Shown piece by piece: positions 2,732 through 63,932 of a DNA stretch of 64,000 nt. The stretch covers positions 118,780 to 182,779 of the forward strand of contig CAVWGE010000004.1 of NCBI GenBank assembly GCA_963754385.1. The letters are read 5' to 3'. Position 1 is the stretch's first letter. Each line of letters starts with the position of its first letter. Made by a program: the position numbers and the translations under genes. The notes beneath the pieces were generated by a model. That model had not been told where the DNA came from, did no database searches, and worked only from the letters and a program-made list of their open reading frames with translations. The DNA is from an uncultured Chloroflexia bacterium (lineage in GTDB: Bacteria; Chloroflexota; Dehalococcoidia; GIF9; UBA5629).

Positions 2732-3670
2732 CTACTCGAACATGGCGCCTATAGAGAGGCCGGTGTGAATGCGGTGTATGGCTTCGCCTAGGAGCGGAGC
2801 TATGGGCAGGACAGTTATCTTGTCCAGTCTCTTCTTTTTGTCAAGGGGGATGGTGTCGGTGACGACCACTTCTTTAATGGGTGATTTGGCTATTCGCTCT
2901 ATAGCTGGTCCGGATAATATGGGGTGTGTGCAGCAGGCGTAGACTTCAGTGGCACCGTGCTCCAGAAGGGTATTGACGACGCCGATAAGCGAGCCAGCAG
3001 TATCGATTTCATCGTCGATAGTTAAGGCGCGCATGCCTTTGACTTCGCCGATGATGTTGAGGGTTTCAGTGATGTCGACATTGCCAATGCGCCTTTTTTC
3101 GATAATAGCCAGCGGAGCGTTGAGCTTAGCTGCCATATCACGGGCATGTGCGGATATGCCGATATCGGTGGCAACGACTACCAGATTGTCCAGTGTTTTC
3201 CCTTTCCAGTATTCGCTGAGGATGAAGAGGGCGGTAAGTTCGTCAACAGGTATGTTGAAGAAGCCCTGGATTTGGGCGGCGTGAAGGTCTATGGTTAACA
3301 GACGGTTGGCGCCGGCGGTGGTGAGCAGGTCAGCTATCAACCTGGCAGTGATGGGCACTCGAGGCTGGTCTTTCTTGTCGGTGCGGCCGTAGGCATAGTA
3401 AGGGATGACAGCGGTGATTCTACCGGCAGAGGCTCGCTTGAAGGCATCGATCATAATGAGGAGTTCGACCAGGTTCTTGTTGACGGGTGTGGAAAACGGT
3501 TGGATGACGAATACATCTCGTTCACGGACATTTTCCTGAACTCGGACGAAAATGTTCTCATTCTTGAATTCGAAGACCTCAGCTTTGCCCAGCGGTATGT
3601 TTAGGTATTCGCATATTGCCTTGGCTAGCATCGGGTGGGCATTGCCGGTGAAGACCTTGAGTTCATCCAT
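2732..3670 (-). CDS. prs: Ribose-phosphate pyrophosphokinase (PRPP synthetase)
   Basis: 312 aa, Prs family sequence ([14 protein letters not shown] region, PRPP-binding loop), 8 nt upstream of secA on the same strand. Confidence 0.9.
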
Positions 3671-3781
3671 TAGTCACACCTACCATTTCTAGTGAGTTAA
3701 TTATAACACCAAAGAGGTTATTGTGTCCTATCAGCTGAGTTTTAAGGGGTCTATTTTGTCACCCTGAACCTTTTGCTTTAT

Positions 3782-3895
3782 GTCATTCTGAAGGAGCGAA
3801 GCGACTGAAGAATCTCACTCTGGGTAAGCTCCGTGAAGGCTCTGGATTCTTCGCTTCGCTCAGAATGACAGGGGGAACGTCTCAGAATGACAAGG
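3782..3895. repeat. Long imperfect palindromic intergenic element (gtcattctga..cgaagcg..gaagaatc / gattcttcg..cgctcagaatgac)
   Basis: Read directly: two arms are near-perfect reverse complements and can form a hairpin of roughly 40 bp. A related copy lies at 32647-32768. Sits in the divergent prs/nth intergenic region. Confidence 0.5.
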
Positions 3896-4031
3896 AGAGA
3901 TGTAGGGATGGAGGCTGTGCCTGAAAATGTAGTGCCGACCTTAGGGTTGAGCTCCCGAGGCTAAAGCCTCGGGACTACATGTTTAGTGTGTATTACTCTC
4001 CCGTCGAGGTAGAGGGAATGAGGCTAAGTTT

Positions 4032-4739
4032 GTGTTGTATAATATTTTTGAGGTGGTTAGCGTGAGCGCTAGACAAATCCTTAAGCTGTTGAGCAAGGAG
4101 TACGGGGAGAAGCGATGGCGCCGGCGGCAGAGCCCGATAGAAGTACTTGTCCAGACGATTCTTTCTCAGAACACGTCGGATAGAAACTCCGGGCGAGCTT
4201 TTGAGCAGCTTCTGGCTTCTTTTGGTAGTTGGGAAGATATGGCTGATGCCAGCGTTGGTGAGATTTCTCATTCTATTAAAGCTGGCGGTCTGGGGGAAGT
4301 TAAAGCCAGGTATATCAAGCAATCGCTGGAGGAAATACGGGGAAGGCAAGGCGGGTTCGAGCTAGACTTTTTGCGAAAGCTGCCTGTAGATGAAGCCAGG
4401 GACTGGCTAAGGCAGTTGTCCGGTGTAGGGATGAAGACAGCTAGCGTTGTTTTGCTTTTCTCGCTGGGTATGCCAGCTTTGCCGGTAGATACGCATGTTT
4501 CCCGTCTAGCTAAAAGGTTGGGGTTGATTGATTCTAAGGTTTCTGCGGAGAAAGCACACAAGCGGCTTGAGGGACTTGTGCCGCTTAAAGATATCTATCA
4601 GTTTCATGTTTTGTTGATAGAGCATGGCAGAAAGGTATGTAAAGCTCAGCGACCTCGCTGTAGGGAGTGTGTGTTAGGTAGATTGTGTCCTAGCTATGAG
4701 AAGTTTGTGGGGCAGAAGTGGAGTGGACAGGCAATCTAA
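4032..4739 (+). CDS. nth: Endonuclease III (DNA glycosylase/AP lyase)
   Basis: HhH-GPD fold sequence (LVQTILSQNTSD, LPGVGMKTASVVL) and a C-terminal 4Cys FeS loop (CKAQRPRCRECVLGRLC). The true start may be slightly downstream. Confidence 0.85.
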   Translation: MLYNIFEVVSVSARQILKLLSKEYGEKRWRRRQSPIEVLVQTILSQNTSDRNSGRAFEQLLASFGSWEDMADASVGEISHSIKAGGLGEVKARYIKQSLEEIRGRQGGFELDFLRKLPVDEARDWLRQLSGVGMKTASVVLLFSLGMPALPVDTHVSRLAKRLGLIDSKVSAEKAHKRLEGLVPLKDIYQFHVLLIEHGRKVCKAQRPRCRECVLGRLCPSYEKFVGQKWSGQAI

Positions 4740-6132
4740 CCACGAACTCTGTACCCTTGCCCAATGTGCTTTTTGCCATGATGTCGCCCCCATGAGCCAG
4801 GACTATCTGTCTGGCGATAGCCAGGCCCAAGCCAGCGCCAGCTTTGCCTGCCGAAGGGTCGGCCCGGTAGAAGCGTTCAAAGACATGCCGCAATTGCTCG
4901 CCAGGTATACCTGGTCCGGTATCAGTTACGACAATTTCGACGAAGCTGGGTTGTGGGTGTCGGGCGACGATGCTTACCTTGCCTCCGGAAGGGGTATGTT
5001 TCAAGGCATTGTCGAGCAAGTTGCTGAAGACCTGCTCCAAGCGGTCGATATCACCGGTGACAGGCGGCAAAGGCTCAATGTCTGTTCTCAGTTGTATGTT
5101 TTTTTCTTCTGCCCGAATTAGGAAAATCTCATGACACTGCTGCAGAAGGTCTTTCAAATCTACAGACTCCTTAACCATCGTGATCTGGCCTGATTCAAGT
5201 CTGGAAAACTCGAGCAGTTCCTCCACAAGCCGCATCATGCGCTTGGACTCGTCCTCAATGACACTAGCAGCTTTAAGTCGGGCCTTTTTATCTTTGGCAG
5301 TTCCATCGACTATAGCCTGGGCAAATCCCTTGATGGAGGTGAGTGGGCTTCTTAGCTCGTGGGAGGCATCAGCTACGAAGTCGCGCAGCATTTGCTGCGA
5401 GCTTTTTACCTGCTTTGCCATCTGGTTAAAGCTTGTGGCCAGACCTTTGACCTCTTTAGGGCCGGCCACTGGAACCTCTTGTTCATAGTTACCGCGGGCT
5501 ATTTCTTCGGCGGCGTTTGTAACGCGTCGGATAGGAACATACATGGAGCGAGCCAGGAGAATGGCTATAAGTATGGAGACGGCTAAGGCGGCAAGTCCTG
5601 CCCAGAGGAAAGGTTTAGCAAAGTCAACCCAAATGGCTAGAGCCTCCCGGCGAGGTATAGCCAGAACCAGAGTTTCTGGGGGGGTGGAGGGGTCTGGAGG
5701 TCTGAACAATCCGACAATGGGGTGGGCGACGAATATAAATCTTTCTCCACTAGGTGTGACGTAGATTCCGACATAAGGTGTTGGCATGCCGGGGGGTGGT
5801 TTTTCAATTTCCAGCTTTGAGGGTGGTATCCAGGAACTATCCTCGGGGATTGCCTGTCTGATAATGACATCTTGAGCGTCCAGTAGAAAGATGTACGTGC
5901 CCGTTTCCTGTGACATCTCCTCCAGATTGGTCCATGCTTGGTTCAGGGAAACTTGACCTCTGGCTGCTGCTCTAAACTGGACGTAGATGGGCAGGGCAGT
6001 GTCGGCCAGGCGTGCCATTGCCAGTCTGTTGAGCTGGTCACCGAGCAGAACTATCAGGGAAACGGCGACTATGCTTAGACATAAGACGATGATTAAAATG
6101 TAGGTGAGAATAAGGCGTGTACGCAGGCTCAT
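4690..6132 (-). CDS. Sensor histidine kinase (HAMP-HisKA-HATPase)
   Basis: N-terminal TM segment, H-box (ADASHELRSPLTSI) and G-boxes (TDTGPGIP, GLGLAIARQIV). The 3' end overlaps nth convergently by 50 nt. Confidence 0.85.
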   Translation of the reverse strand: MSLRTRLILTYILIIVLCLSIVAVSLIVLLGDQLNRLAMARLADTALPIYVQFRAAARGQVSLNQAWTNLEEMSQETGTYIFLLDAQDVIIRQAIPEDSSWIPPSKLEIEKPPPGMPTPYVGIYVTPSGERFIFVAHPIVGLFRPPDPSTPPETLVLAIPRREALAIWVDFAKPFLWAGLAALAVSILIAILLARSMYVPIRRVTNAAEEIARGNYEQEVPVAGPKEVKGLATSFNQMAKQVKSSQQMLRDFVADASHELRSPLTSIKGFAQAIVDGTAKDKKARLKAASVIEDESKRMMRLVEELLEFSRLESGQITMVKESVDLKDLLQQCHEIFLIRAEEKNIQLRTDIEPLPPVTGDIDRLEQVFSNLLDNALKHTPSGGKVSIVARHPQPSFVEIVVTDTGPGIPGEQLRHVFERFYRADPSAGKAGAGLGLAIARQIVLAHGGDIMAKSTLGKGTEFVVRLPVHSTSAPQTSHS

Positions 6133-6182
6133 ATAAACCTCTATTTATAGAACGGCTTTTTCTGTGACTAGAAACTCCGTTC

Positions 6183-6872
6183 TCAGCCGCTTAGTGTTCG
6201 TGATTTCAATGTCATCTTGTAGCCTATACCTCGGACTGTTTCTATTGAGGCGTTTGCTCCGCTCAATTTGTCCCGAAGGTGGTTGATATGGATGTCGACG
6301 GTTCTCGTTTCGCCATAGTAATCAGTTTCCCAAACTATCTCCAGGAGTCGGTCTCGGGTCAGGACGACACCCAGGTTTTGAGCCAAGGTTGCCAGCAGGT
6401 CGAACTCTTTAGTTCGTAGCTTAAGTGGCTGGCTATCTATAGCTGCCTCACGGCGAGCGAGGTCAATTTGTAGATTACCAACTTCTATGATCTGGCTGGG
6501 CTTGAGTCCGGACTTGTAACGGCGGAGAATCGCCTTGACTCTGGCTACCATCTCTCTAGGATTGAACGGTTTTGTCAGGTAATCATCAGCTCCCAGCTCA
6601 AGCCCGACTATTTTGTCCACGTCTTCTTTTCGGGCGGTAAGCATCAGGATGGGGACATCGCTTTTTTTGCGTATCTGCCGGCATATCTCAAAGCCATCTA
6701 TGTCAGGTAGCATTAAATCGAGGACGATGAGCGACGGCTTAGCCGAGCTAAGTTTTGAAAGGGCATCATTACCAGTACCAACTCCTTCTACCTGGTATCC
6801 TTCTTGCTCAAGGTAGAGCTTGGCGAGTTCTAAAATGTTCGCTTCATCATCGACGACCAGTATAGTTGTCAT
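6183..6872 (-). CDS. OmpR-family response regulator
   Basis: REC domain (ILVVDDE..D..LPDIDG) plus winged-helix trans_reg_C domain. Start placed at the internal Met of MTTILVVDDE; the ORF track extends to 6905. Confidence 0.85.
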   Translation of the reverse strand: MTTILVVDDEANILELAKLYLEQEGYQVEGVGTGNDALSKLSSAKPSLIVLDLMLPDIDGFEICRQIRKKSDVPILMLTARKEDVDKIVGLELGADDYLTKPFNPREMVARVKAILRRYKSGLKPSQIIEVGNLQIDLARREAAIDSQPLKLRTKEFDLLATLAQNLGVVLTRDRLLEIVWETDYYGETRTVDIHINHLRDKLSGANASIETVRGIGYKMTLKSRTLSG

Positions 6873-7028: not shown

Positions 7029-8018
7029 TTACTGTGGTTCCATTGGTTCCCGTGGACCCATTGGCCCAATTTTTGGAACGTCTGGTCTGGCTTTTATCCA
7101 GGCTTTGTACTCATCTGCCTGCTGCTGGGTCCATGTGCCCTGATTTATCAGCTCTTGAAGTCTGGTGCCCAAAGATTTCTCACGCAATTCACCTTGGGCC
7201 TGCTTGAAGGCATTTTCAAGGTCTTCCTTGTTGATGTTAAGAATTTCGGCGACGCGTGCTGCCAAGGCATCGCGGTGCTCTTGGAGTTTAGCTACCCCAT
7301 TCTGGCGTAGTTCGGGACGAATTTTCGGCATATCAGGCTTTGATTCTAGCCATGCCTTGTACGCATCTGCCTGCGCTTGAGTTAGCTTGCCCTCATCCAG
7401 CAACTGCTTGAGTTGTCTGGGGCCAACCTTTGGTATATCCGCCGGTCTTGACTCCATCCAGGCTTTGTACTCATCTGCCTGCTGCTGAGTGATTATGCCT
7501 TCCTTTACAAGCCGCTCACCCATTGTTGGCATAATCTCTGGGATATCTGGCTTTGCCTCCATCCATGTCTTAAGCTGGTCTACCTGCTCTTGAGTTATGA
7601 TGCCGTTGTCCAGCGCCTCCTCAAGTTGTCCTGGGGGAACCATTGGGACATCCGGCTTGGCTTCCATCCATGCTTTAAGCTCGTTTGCCTGCTCCTGGGT
7701 CAATGTGCCCTCAGCTATTAATTCTTGAAGCCTGGCATTGAGAGTTTCCTCCCGCGATTCCGTTTGAGCTTGCTTGAGGGCATTCTCAAGCTCCTGCTGG
7801 TCAATACCCAGTATCTCGGCGACTCGAGCTATTAGGGTGCCTTGGCGTTCTGGAGTTTTGCCTTCTTGAGCCAGTGCTATAACTGGTATGCTGGCGATGA
7901 GCATTACGGCCACCAATATGGTGGCAAGAACGATCTTCTGGATTTTTTTCAATTTTTTGGACCTACTTTCTTTTGACTGGAAGCTAACTCCAGACCATGT
8001 AGGGGGTTCTGTGCCCAC
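7029..8018 (-). CDS. Membrane-anchored or secreted tandem-repeat protein of unknown function
   Basis: N-terminal hydrophobic anchor (IVLATILVAVMLIASIPVIALA) followed by five copies of a roughly 40-aa motif (LTQEQANELKAWMEAKPDVP and variants). N- and C-halves are duplicated. First gene of a repeat protein-RR-HK arrangement on the minus strand. Confidence 0.6.
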   Translation of the reverse strand: MGTEPPTWSGVSFQSKESRSKKLKKIQKIVLATILVAVMLIASIPVIALAQEGKTPERQGTLIARVAEILGIDQQELENALKQAQTESREETLNARLQELIAEGTLTQEQANELKAWMEAKPDVPMVPPGQLEEALDNGIITQEQVDQLKTWMEAKPDIPEIMPTMGERLVKEGIITQQQADEYKAWMESRPADIPKVGPRQLKQLLDEGKLTQAQADAYKAWLESKPDMPKIRPELRQNGVAKLQEHRDALAARVAEILNINKEDLENAFKQAQGELREKSLGTRLQELINQGTWTQQQADEYKAWIKARPDVPKIGPMGPREPMEPQ

Positions 8019-45571: not shown

Positions 45572-45647
45572 GAAGTTGTAGCTCAGTTGGGAGTGCGTTT
45601 GATTTGCAGTAAAAAGGTAGCGGGTTCGAATCCCATCAGCTGCACTA
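45572..45647 (+). pseudogene. Degenerate duplicate of tRNA-Ala (anticodon-position TGC, 3' CTA), likely pseudo-tRNA
   Basis: 76-nt cloverleaf-alignable copy of the 46507 tRNA, including about 12 bp of shared 5' flank (gactttttgg). It carries mismatches in the acceptor (2-71 A.G), D (12-23 T.T), anticodon (30-40 G.A) and T (50-64 C.A) stems, A3-T70 instead of the alanine G3-U70 identity pair, and CTA instead of CCA. Confidence 0.55.
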
Positions 45648-46506: not shown

Positions 46507-46582
46507 GGGGCTGTAGCTCAATTGGGAGAGCGTTTGACTGGCAGTCAAAAGGTAGTGGGTTCGAATCCCATCAGCTCCACCA
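46507..46582 (+). tRNA. tRNA-Ala (anticodon GGC)
   Basis: Folded by hand: 7-bp acceptor stem with the G3-U70 alanine identity pair, D stem gctc/gagc, anticodon loop ctGGCag, T arm gtggg-ttcgaat-cccat, discriminator A, encoded CCA. Total 76 nt. Confidence 0.9.
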
Positions 46583-58083: not shown

Positions 58084-58365
58084 TATACACTGCTTTGTTT
58101 CATTCTGGCAGTTGTCTGCTAATAACATGTAGTGGCGGGGCTGAAGCCCCGCCTCGGCGACTTTAAAAGGTCGCCGCTACATTGGTTGGTGGTAGGCGAA
58201 CCTTAAAAGGTCAGGGCTACACTCGTTGAATCCGCGTGGTTGACTGAACGGCCTCGACGGGATAAAATCAGCCTCAGTTGTAAAGATTTATGTAGATGAA
58301 CTTGTGACATTTACGTAATGATACGTATATTTGCTTGAAGTAAGGTTATGTGAGGGGGAGTTAAG

Positions 58366-58609
58366 ATGTTAGATATACTGAAAAATCCTTTTGTTGGTGT
58401 TATGAATTAAGGAAGAATCTGACAGCTTCTTAGTGGTAAAGAAGATGGGGGTGATGTTGTAATCACGCAGCAGGGAAAACCTGTAGCTTTTGGTGGATTT
58501 AGAAGATATACTTGAGATGAAGCAAGTTTTGAAGGAGTTTTTTGAACCAGAGTATCTGGCTGCTCTATTGGAGGCGGAGGAGGGAAATTCGGGAGGGAAG
58601 GTACGGTAA
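58366..58609 (+). pseudogene. Frameshifted Phd/YefM-type antitoxin remnant
   Basis: Three frames piece together MLDILKNPFVGVMN*, ..DVVITQQGKPVAF.. and ..LEDILEMKQVLKEFFEPEYLAALLEAEEG.., which resembles Phd/YefM antitoxins. It is interrupted by stops and shifts. Confidence 0.4.
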
Positions 58610-58639
58610 AAAGTTTTTGCCAATAAAGGGCTGTAATGT

Positions 58640-58857
58640 ACCGAGCTATGTTTTCCAGCTGGGCAGAAAAAGTCTTTATGAGCGTGTGATAGGGAAGCTA
58701 GAAGAGTTAAAGAGGCGATACAAAAGCTTATAGAGAATCCTGATGGAACGATGAAGTTGGAAGAAGCAAAGGTAGATAGTTATAGATATAGGATTGGAGA
58801 TTAAGGATTATTTTTGATATAGATGAAGAAGTTAAAGTTATAGAAATATTGGAATAG
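58640..58857 (+). pseudogene. Frameshifted RelE/ParE-type toxin remnant
   Basis: ..EARRVKEAIQKLIENPDGTMKLEEAKVDSYRYRIGD then, after a 1-nt indel, RIIFDIDEEVKVIEILE*. This matches the RelE/ParE core (..NP..G..L.....YR.R.GDYRIIY.ID.E...V.IL.I..R). Confidence 0.5.
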
Positions 58858-58879
58858 AAAAAGAGATGAGAGAAAGGTT

Positions 58880-61327
58880 ATGTGTGCTTCTAAGTATAAT
58901 CCTCAGGAAATCGAGAAGAAGTGGCAGGAGAAATGGGCGGCCGACCGCCTTTACGAAGTTAAGGATGGTGACAGCCGCCCTAAGTTTTATGCCCTGACCA
59001 TGTTCCCTTATACCTCGGGAGACCTCCATATCGGGCACTGGTATGCTATGGCGCCTTCGGATGTCCATGCCAGGTTCAAGCGTATGCAGGGCTACAACGT
59101 GCTGCATCCCATGGGTTTCGATGCTTTCGGCCTGCCGGCGGAGAATGCAGCCATTAAACATGGCATTCATCCTTACAACTGGACGATGGACAATGTCGAG
59201 AACATGCGCCGCCAGCTGAGGAGCATCGGTGCCATTTATGATTGGAGCCGTGAGGTAGTCACCTGCCTGCCCGAATATTATAAATGGACGCAGTGGTTTT
59301 TCCTCAAGCTTTATGAAGCCGGTTTGGCTTATCGGGCTAAGGCACCGGTCAACTGGTGTCCCACGTGCCAGACGGTGCTGGCTAATGAACAGGTGGTCGG
59401 CGAAGGCTCCTGTGAGCGCTGCGGCACAGCCGTGCTCAAGAAATTACTCGAGCAGTGGTTTTTCCGTATAACCAAATATGCCGATGAGCTTCTCGACTTC
59501 AGCAAGATAGATTGGCCCGAGCGTATAGAAATCATGCAAAACAACTGGATTGGCAAGAGCACCGGCGCCGAGATTTCCTTTGGCCTGGAGCATAAGGGCG
59601 TCGATACCAAGGAGATAAGTGTATTCACCACCCGTCCTGACACTATCTTCGGGGTGACCTTCTTCGTCCTGGCGCCGGAGCATCCTCTGGTACCTCTGCT
59701 TACCACACCGGAACATAAGGCTGAGGTCGAGGCTTATATCCTTCAGACGCAGAGACAGACGGAAATTGAAAGAACGTCTGCGGAGCGGGAAAAGACCGGT
59801 GTCTTCCTGGGGAGCTATGTAATTAACAGGCTGAGCGGTCAGCCTGTGCCCATCTGGATTACCGATTATGTGCTGCTCAGCTATGGCACCGGTGCAGTGA
59901 TGGGTGTGCCGGCACATGACCAGCGTGACTTCGAGTTCGCCAAGAAGTATGGCTTACCTATTCGGGTAGTCATCGCGCCTCCGGACTGGTTGGGGGAGGA
60001 GCTTGAATGCGCTTACACCGAAACCGGGACTATGGCAAACTCGGGGCAGTTCAACGGCCTGCCCAGCGAGCAGGGGTTTGAGGTTATCTGCGATTATATG
60101 GAGAAAAAGAGCTGGGGGAAGCGGGCTGTCACCTATAGACTTCGCGACTGGCTCATCTCCCGGCAGCGCTACTGGGGGGCGCCGATTCCGATGGTTTATT
60201 GTGAAAAGTGCGGCATCGTACCGGTGCCGGAGAAAGATTTGCCGGTTCTGCTGCCTCCTGATGCCGAGTTCAGGCCTACCGGGGAATCGCCATTGAAGTA
60301 TTGCGAATCTTTCGTTAACACCACCTGCCCGAAGTGCTCCGCACCAGCACAGCGAGAGACCGATACCATGGACACCTTTATGTGCTCATCGTGGTATTTC
60401 ATGCGTTATACCAGCCCGGGTGTTGATGATTATCCTTTCGACAAGAAGAAGCTGAAGCACTGGATGCCGGTTGACCTGTACACCGGTGGTGCTGAGCACG
60501 CTGTCATGCATCTTCTCTATTCCCGCTTCTTCATCAAGGCGATTAGAGATATGGGGCTGGTTGATTTCGATGAGCCGTTCATAAAGCTGTTCAATCAGGG
60601 GACGATAATTTACCAGGGCGACAAAATGAGCAAGTCCCGTGGCAATGTGGTTACTCCTGATGTCTATGTGTCCGAGATAGGGGCTGATGCCGTCAGGGCT
60701 TATCTCATGTTTATCGGTCCCTGGGAACTGGGTGGGGAGTGGAGCGACCAGGGCATTGTGGGCATGAGCCGCTGGGTGAACCGGGTCTGGAACCTGGTGA
60801 CAGCCGGCTATTCGGAAAAGAAGGTTGACCCTGATGCGGGAAAAGAGCTGAGCCGTCTCATTCACCAGACCATCAAAAGGGTGACCAATGACATGGAGCG
60901 GTTCCGCTTCAATACCATGCTGGCAGCGCTTATGGAGTTCACCAATTATCTGGCCAAGGTACAGGAGGTAGGCACAGTCTCTGTCTCCCTGTGGAACGAG
61001 ACTGTAACGGGTTTGTTGCTCCTCCTGGCGCCGACGGCACCGCATCTTACCGAAGAGCTATGGGAAAGGATCGGGCATACTTACAGCATACACAACCAGC
61101 CCTGGCCGAAGTGGGATGAGGAGCTGGCTAAAGAAGAAGAGGTCACGCTGGTCATACAGGTCAATGGCAAGCTACGGGACAGAATTACCGTGCCCGTATC
61201 CATCACTGAAGCCGAAGCCAAAGAGCTGGCTCTGAGCCGCGAGCGGATAAAGGCCTACGTCAAAGACAACAAGGTCGCCAGGATTATCTACGTCCCCCAG
61301 CGGCTGGTCAATATAGTTGTGGGGTAG
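58880..61327 (+). CDS. leuS: Leucine--tRNA ligase
   Basis: 815 aa: HIGH motif (DLHIGHW), editing domain, KMSKS motif (KMSKSRGN), anticodon-binding C-terminus. Confidence 0.95.
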   Translation: MCASKYNPQEIEKKWQEKWAADRLYEVKDGDSRPKFYALTMFPYTSGDLHIGHWYAMAPSDVHARFKRMQGYNVLHPMGFDAFGLPAENAAIKHGIHPYNWTMDNVENMRRQLRSIGAIYDWSREVVTCLPEYYKWTQWFFLKLYEAGLAYRAKAPVNWCPTCQTVLANEQVVGEGSCERCGTAVLKKLLEQWFFRITKYADELLDFSKIDWPERIEIMQNNWIGKSTGAEISFGLEHKGVDTKEISVFTTRPDTIFGVTFFVLAPEHPLVPLLTTPEHKAEVEAYILQTQRQTEIERTSAEREKTGVFLGSYVINRLSGQPVPIWITDYVLLSYGTGAVMGVPAHDQRDFEFAKKYGLPIRVVIAPPDWLGEELECAYTETGTMANSGQFNGLPSEQGFEVICDYMEKKSWGKRAVTYRLRDWLISRQRYWGAPIPMVYCEKCGIVPVPEKDLPVLLPPDAEFRPTGESPLKYCESFVNTTCPKCSAPAQRETDTMDTFMCSSWYFMRYTSPGVDDYPFDKKKLKHWMPVDLYTGGAEHAVMHLLYSRFFIKAIRDMGLVDFDEPFIKLFNQGTIIYQGDKMSKSRGNVVTPDVYVSEIGADAVRAYLMFIGPWELGGEWSDQGIVGMSRWVNRVWNLVTAGYSEKKVDPDAGKELSRLIHQTIKRVTNDMERFRFNTMLAALMEFTNYLAKVQEVGTVSVSLWNETVTGLLLLLAPTAPHLTEELWERIGHTYSIHNQPWPKWDEELAKEEEVTLVIQVNGKLRDRITVPVSITEAEAKELALSRERIKAYVKDNKVARIIYVPQRLVNIVVG

Positions 61328-61485
61328 TGACTGGAACTTGCAGCGGCTTTTGTAGGATGTATAATGTCATAAGTTGTACCCTGTTTTAGCGAGTGAGACG
61401 GAGTATAAGCCTGTGAATAGTTTGTACTAAATTTGGTTTGAGTCTTAGAGTTCAAGCGATAATTACTGGCTAGGGAGGTAGAGGA

Positions 61486-62364
61486 GTGAAAATAGAAGTA
61501 ACTTTGAGAAATCCGCAAGCTATTGAGATAGTAAAAAATTTGCCAAAAGAGACGAGAGACGAAATTATTGAGAAATACATAATTTTGGGGAATATGGTTG
61601 CCTTTCACGCTTCGATAAGTACCAGTAAGGAGACTGTTGAGACTTTCTTTGCACCTCTTAGATCAGACATTGAAATGATAAGAGAACAGCTGAAATTGAT
61701 AGTTCCAACGATAGCTATACCTGCATCTAAAGGTGGAGTGACTGCCGAGAATGTTTTTAAAAGCTTCGAAGGGCATTTTATGGATGATTGTTTTGAAGAT
61801 GTTTCAGCCATAGGTAAATATTCAGATATTAAAGCAACAACTTCTGAGACTAAAGTAGTCGTTCTTATTGAGGTTAAAGATTATTCCCAAAGTGTCCCCA
61901 GTGGTGAGGTTGAAAAATTTTGGAGAGATATGGAAAGACGTGATGCGCGTTATGGTATCTTTCTGTCTCTGCGTTCGCCGATAGCGAAAATTTCTGGGCC
62001 CATAAAATTAGAAACGAAAATGAGTCGGACAGCAATATTTGTTGTTGATAGTGCGTTGAATTGGTCTGGGCATTTGTTCGCATATTATGTGGTTAAGAAA
62101 CTAATAGAGCTAGAGACCTTAAAGAAAAAGCAATTAAAGGGTGAAGATCTTGCTAAAGTTATCTCAAAGGTTAACCATTATTTAATTGAGATACAAAAAG
62201 ACATAGAAATAATCGAGGAGATTCAAGACACAGCAGATAAACTCAAAACTACTTGTACAAATAGACTTCAAACACTAATCGACCCTGCTGACAGATATAA
62301 GAGAAAACTTAATGAAAAGATTGGCGAGGCATTCCAAGAGATAGAAAAGGCGGAGGTAAAATGA
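61486..62364 (+). CDS. Mrr-like restriction endonuclease (PD-(D/E)xK) domain protein with C-terminal coiled coil
   Basis: GTG start with a GGAGG RBS. The core FEGHFMDDCFEDVSAIGKYSDIKA...VVVLIEVKDY...EVEKFWRDM...GIFLS fits the Mrr_cat / PD-(D/E)xK pattern (D...ExK). Strongly AT-rich compared with leuS. Confidence 0.55.
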   Translation: MKIEVTLRNPQAIEIVKNLPKETRDEIIEKYIILGNMVAFHASISTSKETVETFFAPLRSDIEMIREQLKLIVPTIAIPASKGGVTAENVFKSFEGHFMDDCFEDVSAIGKYSDIKATTSETKVVVLIEVKDYSQSVPSGEVEKFWRDMERRDARYGIFLSLRSPIAKISGPIKLETKMSRTAIFVVDSALNWSGHLFAYYVVKKLIELETLKKKQLKGEDLAKVISKVNHYLIEIQKDIEIIEEIQDTADKLKTTCTNRLQTLIDPADRYKRKLNEKIGEAFQEIEKAEVK

Positions 62365-62582
62365 ACATATTTTGTCCGTTTTTCAAGGACAGATGCAAAG
62401 GCAACGAATGCGTGATGTGGAAAGATGAGAAGTGTTTGATAATTTCATTTATGGAAAATTGTATAACGCCTCCTGAAGAGGAGGTTGAAGAGCTTGAACG
62501 AATTGGCCGTGAGATGAGGGGAATAAGGGAAATGGAAGTTCCAGATGAAATAAAGTCAGCCAAAACGAACTATCGCAGATGA
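62361..62582 (+). CDS. Small Cys-rich protein, translationally coupled to the Mrr-like gene
   Basis: ATGA start/stop overlap. 73 aa with C5, C12, C17, C25, C34 (MNIFCPFFKDRCKGNECVMWKDEKC) and an acidic tail. Confidence 0.45.
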   Translation: MNIFCPFFKDRCKGNECVMWKDEKCLIISFMENCITPPEEEVEELERIGREMRGIREMEVPDEIKSAKTNYRR

Positions 62583-63284
62583 ATTACCATCTTTAATTAA
62601 TTCGTGTGTTGATTGGGCTAGAGGTCATGGGCTTAAAACAGTTACGAAACAGATAAGAAGCGTTTTAATTGATAGAAATATTGAAATCCTGCCCAAAACA
62701 CAAAGATCATTGTACGCATGTAAATTTAGGCAATGGCTGTGAGAAGCCCTGTTTATATTTATACTTCGTGTTTTTGTCTCATAGTTGGATTTGGGGTACG
62801 CAACATGAAAGGGGATGAAATACTGGCAACGAAGACAATAGTGGTTAAATTTTATTGCTCCTGTCTATAGATACTACAATTAATGCTTTGTATGGATGCA
62901 ATCGATCAGAAGATGAAACAAGGGCTAAAGTTATCATACTTATTTCATCTCCCGGTGGTTCCGTACTTTCACGGGCTATCGCTTACAACTATCTCGTGTG
63001 GAGAAAGGCTTGCCTGTGGATGTAACACGTAATTTTCAGTGTTGATAGTTGTGTTTTGGGGGGAGCAAGAGGCTCTCTGTCCCTCAGCAAGATTTCTGCT
63101 TCATGGTGTGAGCCTGGTTTCCAAAATGAGTGGAAGAGACACTGAGAGAGACTAAAGGGCTTAAGATTGACATAAAGAATATCGCCAAGGTTGTAGCAAA
63201 TAGGTAAGAACTTTCAGGATGTCACAAATGCCATGGTGAAAGAACTACTGAATCCTGATGATACGTGTCTGAGCATTAGCTACT

Positions 63285-63932
63285 ATGGCAATGAAAATCG
63301 TATTAATAGTCGTACTGTGCATCCTGGCGTTTCTTATCCTGTGGCTTAGCCTGGCTAAACTAATCAGGAAGATGTTTCGTTTTCCGGCACCGGCGTTTAT
63401 CGGGCGGCTTCTGGATAGCGGCTACAGGAGGCGAATACAGCCGCCGGCTCAGTTGATAGAGCGCAGCGGCATAAAGAAGGGTATGAATGTTCTGGACCTC
63501 GGCTGTGGCAGCGGGGCTTTTACACCTTTTATTGCCCGGACAGTCGGCGAGAAGGGCAAGGTCTATGCGCTGGACATACAAGCGGATATGTTGAAGCAGC
63601 TTGAGAATAAGCTGTCCAGGCCTGAAAACAATGATATTAAGAATATCAAGCTCATCGAGGGCAATGCCTATGAGCTGCCATTTGAGGACAATTCTCTGGA
63701 TTTGGTGAATATGGTGACTGTCCTCCAGGAGATACCGGACAGAAACAGGGCTTTGCAGGAGGTCAATAGGGTATTGAAGCCGGGAGGGTTTTTTGCTGTG
63801 ACGGAACTGTTTCCCGACCCTGACTATCCGTGGAAGTCCACTACTATCAAGTTAGGCAAGGGAACCGGCTTTGTGGTGGATGAGGTTTCGGGGAATTTTT
63901 TCAACTACACAGTCAGATTTAAGAAGCCGTGA
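63285..63932 (+). CDS. Membrane-anchored class I SAM-dependent methyltransferase
   Basis: N-terminal TM helix, motif I VLDLGCGSGAF, motif II YALDI, and a Methyltransf_11-like core. Confidence 0.8.
   Translation: MAMKIVLIVVLCILAFLILWLSLAKLIRKMFRFPAPAFIGRLLDSGYRRRIQPPAQLIERSGIKKGMNVLDLGCGSGAFTPFIARTVGEKGKVYALDIQADMLKQLENKLSRPENNDIKNIKLIEGNAYELPFEDNSLDLVNMVTVLQEIPDRNRALQEVNRVLKPGGFFAVTELFPDPDYPWKSTTIKLGKGTGFVVDEVSGNFFNYTVRFKKP

What the first reader, a model, noticed from the sequence alone, without database searches (positions are those of the whole stretch)
61486..62582. AT-rich two-gene module after leuS: Mrr/PD-(D/E)xK-like nuclease plus overlapping Cys-rich 73-aa protein, a candidate defence or abortive-infection pair
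GC drops abruptly after leuS (61330-63280 is clearly AT-richer), which suggests horizontal acquisition. The 292-aa protein has a central segment fitting the Mrr_cat restriction-endonuclease fold (FE..F..DV..G...DIKA......VVLIEVKDY...V...EVEKF......GIFLS; candidate D-x(n)-ExK catalytic triad). It is flanked by an uncharacterised N-terminal domain and a C-terminal coiled coil. The 73-aa gene overlaps by ATGA and has five cysteines in its first 34 residues. About 700 bp of AT-rich non-coding DNA follows. No methyltransferase partner is adjacent, so this is not a classic R-M pair.
Basis: partly seen in the sequence, partly recalled or inferred. Interest (0 to 1): 0.6.

Follow-up and report, generated by a model that had tools for sequence, protein, structure and literature searches.

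The report
Mobile archaeal nuclease with broken partner
An AT-rich island after leuS carries an intact restriction-type (Mrr-like) DNA nuclease gene from a small mobile archaeal two-gene cassette of unknown function. The "73-aa Cys-rich gene" is the truncated front end of its normal ~200-aa partner gene, which a deletion and a frameshift have destroyed here.

Summary
The 292-aa protein (61486-62364) is a PD-(D/E)xK nuclease of the Mrr_cat type. It has an invariant D114...E129-x-K131 motif and a confident alpha-beta-beta-beta-alpha-beta core, and its best structural matches are restriction-type nucleases.

The 73-aa ORF is not a gene in its own right. In 66 of 102 related loci the nuclease is followed, nearly always with overlapping stop and start codons, by a ~200-aa all-helical partner with no known family or fold. 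The window keeps only the partner's first ~67 codons (62361-62561) and an out-of-frame 3' piece (62578-62718). About 249 bp were lost at a 10-nt microhomology, and there are further small indels.

Partner loss with an intact nuclease is recurrent. At least four solo clades exist, and most solo pairs remain under purifying selection (dN/dS 0.06-0.13). In the largest solo clade a zinc finger is fused to the nuclease. This argues against a toxin-antitoxin or obligate-activator relationship.

The cassette is rare, AT-richer than its hosts, spread across archaeal phyla, and sits in unrelated contexts, some carrying integrases, R-M, TA or Abi genes. No known defence system matches. Best reading: a mobile, restriction-like nuclease that works without its partner, here mid-way through losing it. 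A defence role is plausible but unproven.

The parts
61330..61485 (+). Left edge of the AT-rich island: 156-bp spacer between the leuS stop and the nuclease start. Contains GGAGG 8 nt before the GTG and an AT-rich ATAATTA box about 30 nt upstream (a possible archaeal promoter; inference only).
   Evidence: Sequence. No similarity to upstream regions of other loci; homology with L007 begins at 61481.
61486..62364 (+). Intact 292-aa nuclease gene: N-terminal helical region (res 1-80, low model confidence), PD-(D/E)xK core (res ~87-210 = 61744-62115), and long C-terminal helices (res 195-288 = 62068-62349).
61825..61878 (+). Catalytic motif D114 (61825-61827) ... E129 (61870-61872)-V-K131 (61876-61878); D-x14-E-x-K.
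   Evidence: Invariant in 75 aligned family members, together with H97, D100, D101 and D105. Lies within the Mrr_cat match.
62361..62582 (+). 73-aa ORF, the 5' fragment of the partner pseudogene. Codons 1-67 (62361-62561) are homologous to the partner N-terminus, including the C-x6-C-x4-C-x7-C motif. The last codons (NYRR*) are frameshift read-through.
   Evidence: tblastn of four intact partners (E 1e-12 to 1e-18); alignment; blastn to L007; hmmsearch covers partner profile positions 1-74.
62563..62586 (+). Lesion site: a net -2-nt indel (frameshift) followed by the junction of a ~249-bp deletion at a 10-nt microhomology (AGxxGAxxTA, encoding A-E-L at both ends in L007).
   Evidence: The two blastn HSPs against L007 (5750-6858 and 7098-7242) overlap at window 62577-62586.
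62578..62745 (+). 3' fragment of the partner pseudogene in a different frame (homology 62578-62718; stop at 62743-62745). It corresponds to the C-terminal ~55-residue helical domain but has three 1-nt gaps and has lost the invariant D182, V183 and F186.
   Evidence: tblastn E 1e-9 to 2e-16; blastn 76% identity with 3 gaps; alignment.
62746..63284 (.). Rest of the AT-rich island: ~540 bp with no ORF above 56 aa and no recognisable relative. Content unexplained.
   Evidence: No tblastx or blastn match to any of 105 loci or to the rest of the window; no Rfam hit above threshold; no terminator-like site.

Best explanation
The island is a horizontally acquired copy of a compact archaeal cassette, found mainly in Bathyarchaeia. 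Its core is a metal-dependent Mrr-type PD-(D/E)xK DNA endonuclease. In the ancestral form a second gene, translationally coupled by overlapping stop and start codons, encodes a ~200-aa helical accessory protein. That protein has a small 4-Cys knuckle, an acidic linker, a helical domain, a ~60-residue charged helix and a duplicable ~55-residue C-terminal helical domain.

I infer that the partner docks on the nuclease's long C-terminal helices and supplies nucleic-acid recognition or regulation. It does not appear to neutralise a toxin. In this genome the partner was destroyed by a 249-bp microhomology deletion plus frameshifts, while the nuclease stayed intact. The nuclease therefore most likely acts alone, as it does in at least four independent solo lineages.

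The most likely role is restriction-like cleavage of foreign DNA, that is, defence or inter-element conflict.

Shown: the fold and catalytic motif, the pair architecture, the pseudogenisation, recurrent partner loss with purifying selection on most solo nucleases, and mobility. Inferred: complex formation, the partner's DNA-binding or regulatory role, and the defence function.
For: Fold and motif. Pair architecture: the partner is intact in 63 loci, plus 3 with a duplicated C-terminal domain, out of 102. Pseudogene in the window. Recurrent loss: 17 solo loci in at least 4 clades, each closer to partner-bearing nucleases (69-76%) than to other solo clades (63-68%); partner 5' stubs remain in L016 and L103/L021; other fresh disruptions in L030, L013/14/47, L015 and L070. 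Solo nucleases: dN/dS 0.06-0.13 in 10 of 12 pairs. A conserved zinc finger is fused in cis in the largest solo clade. Window nuclease undecayed. Mobility: only 13 loci in 185,579 species genomes; partner homologues in Bathyarchaeia, Aenigmarchaeota, Helarchaeota and Nanoarchaeota MAGs; GC below flanks in 30 of 32 loci; no shared flanks. Conflict-type neighbours: integrases, type II/IIG/III R-M, Fic, CcdA/MazE, PIN, AbiJ, T4SS, mad2, PDC candidates. Distant relatives add DNA-binding modules such as SAP.
Confidence: 0.6

Rival explanations
1. Toxin-antitoxin or abortive-infection pair. The nuclease is a toxin held in check by the partner (antitoxin or sensor), and cell death follows when the partner is removed.
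For: Two small overlapping genes on mobile DNA. Neighbours include other TA and Abi genes. The nuclease has an invariant active site.
Against: The putative antitoxin has been lost at least 4 times, plus several recent disruptions including the window, while the nuclease stays intact. Most solo pairs are under purifying selection (dN/dS 0.06-0.13). The partner is downstream of the nuclease and larger than typical antitoxins. There are no TA-family hits.
Confidence: 0.12
2. Selfish free-standing homing-type endonuclease cassette. It spreads by cutting empty target sites and has no benefit to the host.
Against: There is no recurrent insertion site: about 85 distinct loci share no flanking gene. 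There is no intron or intein context. The nuclease shows strong and long-lasting purifying selection in most lineages.
Confidence: 0.1
3. The whole island is a dead relic in this genome. The nuclease ORF is still open only because too little time has passed since the partner was lost.
For: The partner carries multiple lesions. About 540 bp of adjacent DNA is unrecognisable. A second decayed accessory module, a RelE-like TA pair, lies on the other side of leuS. L025 and L070 show that nuclease remnants do occur.
Against: The nuclease keeps every invariant residue and deviates at only 3 of 91 conserved columns. The 3' partner fragment has decayed visibly (76% identity, 3 indels) while the nuclease has none. 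Solo nucleases persist under selection elsewhere.
Confidence: 0.13
4. Housekeeping DNA-repair or recombination nuclease (Hjc, NucS or Bax1-like) with an accessory factor.
Against: It is present in only about 10 of 185,579 species genomes, synteny is not conserved, composition is foreign, it sits close to integrases and T4SS genes, and there is no sequence-level match to those families.
Confidence: 0.05

Closest known systems
Mrr-type restriction endonuclease catalytic domain (Pfam PF04471, Mrr_cat; E. coli Mrr, type IV restriction)
   Same: The PD-(D/E)xK core has the D...ExK motif. The HMM match is at or above the gathering score in the window protein and in relatives (up to 29.4 bits). It is a stand-alone nuclease without a cognate methyltransferase, and it is horizontally mobile.
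   Different: There is no Mrr_N winged-helix domain. Instead there is an unrelated ~80-residue helical N-terminus and a ~90-residue C-terminal helical region. It is usually paired with a novel ~200-aa protein. Dependence on DNA modification is unknown.
McrC (nuclease subunit of McrBC) and the nuclease domain of Type ISP enzymes (LlaBIII)
   Different: No GTPase or ATPase partner is present here. The partner has no NTPase motifs or known fold. There is no sequence-level similarity.
Can2 / VC1899 (DUF1887) CRISPR-ancillary nucleases
   Different: There is no CARF or other sensor domain, no CRISPR linkage in any locus, and high rmsd outside the core.
Heterodimeric restriction enzymes such as R.BspD6I (large plus small subunit)
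   Different: In BspD6I both subunits are nucleases and a methyltransferase accompanies them. Here the partner is non-enzymatic and helical.
DUF2130 (PF09903), uncharacterised coiled-coil plus nuclease proteins
   Same: Distant 414-430-aa relatives of the nuclease give sub-threshold DUF2130 matches over ~200 residues.
   Different: The matches are below the gathering score. The window protein itself gives no hit. The function of DUF2130 is also unknown.

Membership tests
PD-(D/E)xK / Mrr_cat nuclease superfamily | Profile match to PF04471 at or above the gathering score | tested here: met
   21.4 bits vs cut-off 21 for the window protein, which is marginal. 74 of 75 family members hit at E <= 0.01, best 8.8e-7. 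Distant relatives score 24-29 bits.
PD-(D/E)xK / Mrr_cat nuclease superfamily | Conserved D...(D/E)xK catalytic residues | tested here: met
   D114, E129 and K131 are invariant in 75 sequences and present in the window.
PD-(D/E)xK / Mrr_cat nuclease superfamily | alpha-beta-beta-beta-alpha-beta core fold | tested here: met
Mrr proper (type IV modification-dependent restriction) | N-terminal Mrr_N winged-helix DNA-binding domain | tested here: not met
   No Mrr_N hit even at E <= 10. The N-terminus is a different, poorly modelled helical region.
Mrr proper (type IV modification-dependent restriction) | Cleavage only of modified DNA | not testable with these tools
   Needs biochemistry.
Classical type II/III restriction-modification pair | Adjacent cognate DNA methyltransferase | tested here: not met
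   The gene at 63285-63932 resembles small-molecule SAM methyltransferases and has host-like GC. No methyltransferase is conserved next to the cassette across loci.
Any known or candidate defence system in PADLOC-DB v2 | HMM match of either protein | tested here: not met
   No hit for the window proteins at E <= 10. Ten distant relatives gave one faint PDC-S02 hit at E 0.006.
Defence-island resident | Neighbourhood enriched in defence or mobile-element genes | tested here: inconclusive
   R-M, Abi, PIN, mad2, PDC and integrase genes are present in a minority of about 85 neighbourhoods, and housekeeping genes dominate. No background rate was computed.
Type II toxin-antitoxin module | Toxin never maintained without its antitoxin | tested here: not met
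   17 solo loci fall in at least 4 clades. dN/dS is 0.06-0.13 in 10 of 12 solo pairs (the other two: 0.22, and 0.68 at dS 0.09).
EAD-coupled conflict systems (Kaur et al. 2020, PMC7159879) | The same effector-associated domain present in both adjacent proteins | tested here: not met
   Only 8 of 75 nucleases hit EAD9 weakly. Profile-profile comparison of nuclease and partner finds no shared domain (probability 0.2).
Homing endonuclease | Recurrent specific insertion site, or an intron or intein host | tested here: not met
   No shared flanks among loci.

The most novel reading that the evidence does not exclude
The nuclease and its ~200-aa helical partner form a previously undescribed two-component archaeal immune system. 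The partner (Zn knuckle, long charged helix, duplicable HTH-like end domain) would be the sensor or targeting subunit of a restriction-type effector. Lineages would repeatedly simplify the system, either by deleting the partner or by replacing it with a zinc finger fused to the nuclease. The window would capture one such transition.
Probability: 0.3. Interest if true: 0.6.

Novelty: new variant of a known kind. Interest (0 to 1): 0.4.

Why it matters
Bathyarchaeia are abundant, uncultured sediment archaea whose defence and mobile-element repertoires are poorly known. This cassette is an uncharacterised restriction-type nuclease family: at least 277 close members and about 1250 distant cluster representatives. 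Its partner protein has no family, no fold relative and no annotation. Repeated partner loss, one replacement by a fused zinc finger, and tandem duplication of the partner's end domain together make a natural experiment on which parts of the system are dispensable, and they point to simple experiments. For annotating this window the practical result is a correction: there is one intact gene and one pseudogene, not two genes.

Tried and rejected
1. Partner fused to longer relatives: the partner HMM against 150 distant nuclease relatives gave nothing.
2. Shared domain between nuclease and partner: none by hhalign.
3. Viral or plasmid origin: no relatives in IMG/VR, INPHARED phages or PLSDB plasmids. 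The partner has no structural relative in BFVD.
4. Sequence relatives with solved structures: none for either profile.
5. att-like flanking direct repeats, tRNA targets and terminators: none convincing.
6. ncRNA in the island: nothing above threshold.
7. Homology of the leftover 62746-63284 or the upstream spacer to any locus: none.
8. Source-contig look-ups by exact protein failed, and cluster look-ups gave no names, so no empty-site comparison could be made.
10. Literature searches found no description of this pair.
11. Downstream methyltransferase as an R-M partner: rejected.
12. Shared leuS adjacency: only the distant L022 relative has it, which I take as coincidence.

Full report
**Observation.** GC falls from 0.52-0.57 in leuS (58880-61327) to 0.34-0.40 across about 61300-62950. 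It returns to about 0.51 in the next gene at 63285. The small ORF has Cys at positions 5, 12, 17, 25 and 34. No ORF longer than 56 aa lies between 62583 and 63284.

**The nuclease.** Pfam Mrr_cat matches residues 114-162 at 21.4 bits against a cut-off of 21. That is marginal for a single sequence, but 74 of 75 aligned family members hit Mrr_cat individually, and more distant relatives score 24-29 bits.
- In the 75-sequence alignment, D114, E129 and K131 (D-x14-E-x-K) are invariant, as are H97, D100, D101 and D105.
- AlphaFold2 models residues 87-210 at pLDDT about 90 with the alpha-beta-beta-beta-alpha-beta order. These are followed by long helices, 195-217 and 221-288. The first 80 residues are helical but poorly modelled.
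- There is no sequence-level relative in the PDB, and no match in PADLOC, NCBIfam or PHROGs.

The PD-(D/E)xK/Mrr_cat assignment is therefore sound.

**The 73-aa ORF is a gene fragment.** A direct search found only one relative of the 73-aa ORF, itself a truncated sequence. In eight independent homologous loci, however, the nuclease gene is followed by a gene of 178-214 aa, overlapping it in seven of the eight.
- The N-termini of those proteins match the 73-aa ORF (MxxFCPFFKxxCxGNECxMWxDExC...).
- Their C-termini match a stretch just beyond its stop, in another frame: ELPSLINSCVDWARGHGLK....
- Against the closest locus, L007, window 61481-62586 aligns to 5750-6858 at 83.6% identity, and window 62577-62718 aligns to 7098-7242 at 76%.
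- The two matches overlap on a 10-nt microhomology that encodes A-E-L at both sites. About 249 bp (partner residues ~68-150) are therefore deleted.
- A net -2-nt indel just upstream shifts the frame, which produces the NYRR* tail.
- The 3' fragment has three further 1-nt gaps and has lost residues that are invariant elsewhere (D182, V183, F186).

These multiple independent lesions make an assembly artefact unlikely, although I could not check reads. The remaining ~540 bp (62746-63284) match nothing.

**The partner family.** A profile search found 185 partner proteins, none with a Pfam domain.
- A C-x6-C-x4-C-x7-C motif is present in 104 of the 120 listed. The rest either have an unrelated non-Cys N-terminus or a shorter called N-terminus that lacks the first cysteines.
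- AlphaFold2 models residues 60-214 at pLDDT about 97. The structure is all-helical: a small helical domain, one ~60-residue helix rich in E, K and R, and a two-helix C-terminal end.
- Some members carry that ~55-residue end domain in tandem duplicate, so it is an autonomous module.
- BFVD finds nothing, and the PDB profile search gives only weak hits that look spurious (best E 0.0085, to a cone cGMP phosphodiesterase).
- One member gives a sub-threshold match to the DNA-binding SAM-like domain of integrases.

A nucleic-acid-binding role is therefore a weakly supported inference.

**Distribution and mobility.**
- The exhaustive search gives 1252 representatives at E <= 1e-3, but only 30 at E <= 1e-30.
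- Among 185,579 species genomes there are 13 loci. Nine are close relatives, eight from Bathyarchaeia or Bathyarchaeota MAGs. The others are a Nitrososphaerales MAG, a 3.7-kb contig binned as Dehalococcoidales, a Methanocellales remnant and three distant relatives.
- Partner homologues also occur in Aenigmarchaeota, Helarchaeota and Nanoarchaeota MAGs.
- The nuclease gene is AT-richer than its flanks in 30 of 32 loci: mean GC 0.354 vs 0.414, and in the window 0.365 vs 0.478.
- Flanking genes differ in every locus. Between-locus homology starts within a few bases of the nuclease start codon.
- Neighbours include integrases (six loci), type II/IIG/III R-M genes, Fic, CcdA, MazE, PIN, AbiJ, T4SS genes, mad2 and PADLOC candidate families. 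Many are ordinary housekeeping genes.
- No gene other than the partner is a conserved neighbour.

I did not compute a background rate, so 'defence island' remains suggestive rather than shown.

**Recurrent partner loss.** Across 102 loci (85 distinct nucleases), partner status was as follows:

| Partner status | Loci |
|---|---|
| Intact | 63 |
| Intact with duplicated C-terminal domain | 3 |
| Intact, but nuclease match fragmented (L061) | 1 |
| Absent (solo nuclease) | 17 |
| Disrupted (window; L030 frameshift; L013/14/47 premature stop, with intact sister L094; L015; L070) | 7 |
| Truncated | 1 |
| Not assessable (contig ends too soon) | 10 |

- The solo nucleases form four groups on a neighbour-joining tree. 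Each solo nuclease is closer to partner-bearing nucleases (69-76% identity) than to solo nucleases of another group (63-68%).
- Two groups still carry a stub of the partner's first codons: L016 MKTFCPLI..., and L103/L021 MINTFQ*.
- In the largest solo group, nine of ten members have a conserved C-x2-C...C-x2-H zinc finger and linker fused to the nuclease N-terminus.
- dN/dS between solo nucleases is 0.06-0.13 in 10 of 12 pairs. The exceptions are 0.22 (L075-L083) and 0.68 (L103-L021, where dS is only 0.09).
- The window nuclease has dN/dS 0.127 against L007. It deviates at only 3 of 91 highly conserved columns, all conservatively (family median 1, maximum 9).

**Interpretation.** These data show that the nuclease is the selected core and can persist without the partner. 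That argues against the partner being an essential antitoxin, and against it being an obligate activator. It fits best with an accessory recognition or regulatory subunit whose function can be dropped or supplied in cis.

Given the Mrr-type fold, the lack of a methyltransferase (the adjacent one resembles small-molecule enzymes), the foreign composition and the sporadic, mobile distribution, I favour a restriction-like role against foreign DNA.

Rival readings keep some weight: a selfish homing-type cassette, a toxin-antitoxin module, a dead relic, or a repair nuclease. The reasons are given under each. A weak EAD9 signal in 8 of 75 nucleases (PMC7159879) hints at conflict-system adaptor logic, but the profile comparison finds no domain shared with the partner.

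**Verdict.** The two-gene picture needs correcting: there is one intact Mrr-type nuclease gene and one pseudogenised partner. The family is uncharacterised and modestly interesting as a candidate archaeal conflict system, and the copy in this window is a partly decayed instance.

Noticed in passing
window 58367-58870 (+): A second AT-rich, strongly G-skewed stretch, on the other side of leuS, reads as a decayed antitoxin plus RelE/ParE-type toxin pair broken by several stops and frameshifts (...VVITQQGKPVA......YRYRIGD / RIIFDIDEEVKVIEILE). The stitched toxin peptide's best PDB hit is the Pyrococcus horikoshii protein PHS013 (1wmi_A, which I recall as archaeal RelE; E 0.011), and E. coli RelE scores E 0.54. 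The antitoxin half gave no significant hit.
   Followed up: partly
window 62692-62709 and 63043-63060: An 18-nt inverted repeat (89% complementary, 333 nt apart). Its left arm lies inside the partner's 3' remnant. It may be a trace of a rearrangement or simply chance.
   Followed up: no
window 63229-63274 (+): A weak archaeal C/D-box sRNA-like match (Rfam sR14, 20.3 bits vs gathering score 38, E 0.014) just upstream of the methyltransferase gene.
   Followed up: no
L019, L020, L075, L083, L086, L089, L096, L099, L101 (about 200 nt upstream of the nuclease core): Solo nucleases of one clade carry a conserved N-terminal extension, M.YYCN.CKQ...PLC..HQ (C-x2-C...C-x2-H zinc finger), plus the linker TKSLDEVIFNSRVLDNSNSS. 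This is an architecture switch relative to the two-gene form. L017 has lost the finger but keeps the linker.
   Followed up: partly
P0141, P0145; L091, L095, L104: Partner variants of ~265-271 aa with a tandem duplication of the ~55-residue C-terminal domain.
   Followed up: partly
nuclease family alignment A4: 8 of 75 members weakly hit Pfam EAD9 (effector-associated domain 9, best E 3e-4), an adaptor domain of bacterial conflict systems.
   Followed up: partly
L022 (Thiomargarita MAG) 6-2402 and 3360-4385: A distant (26% identical) relative of the nuclease also lies next to a leuS gene, on the opposite strand. Probably coincidence.
   Followed up: no
window 58130-58230: Two similar ~26-nt elements (GGCGACTTTAAAAGGTCGCCGCTACA and GGCGAACCTTAAAAGGTCAGGGCTACA) about 48 nt apart, just upstream of the minus-strand 151-aa gene. 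Seen by eye only.
   Followed up: no
window 45572-45645 and 46507-46582: Two tRNA-Ala genes (anticodons TGC and GGC) about 0.9 kb apart. No rRNA or other Rfam family was found in the window.
   Followed up: no
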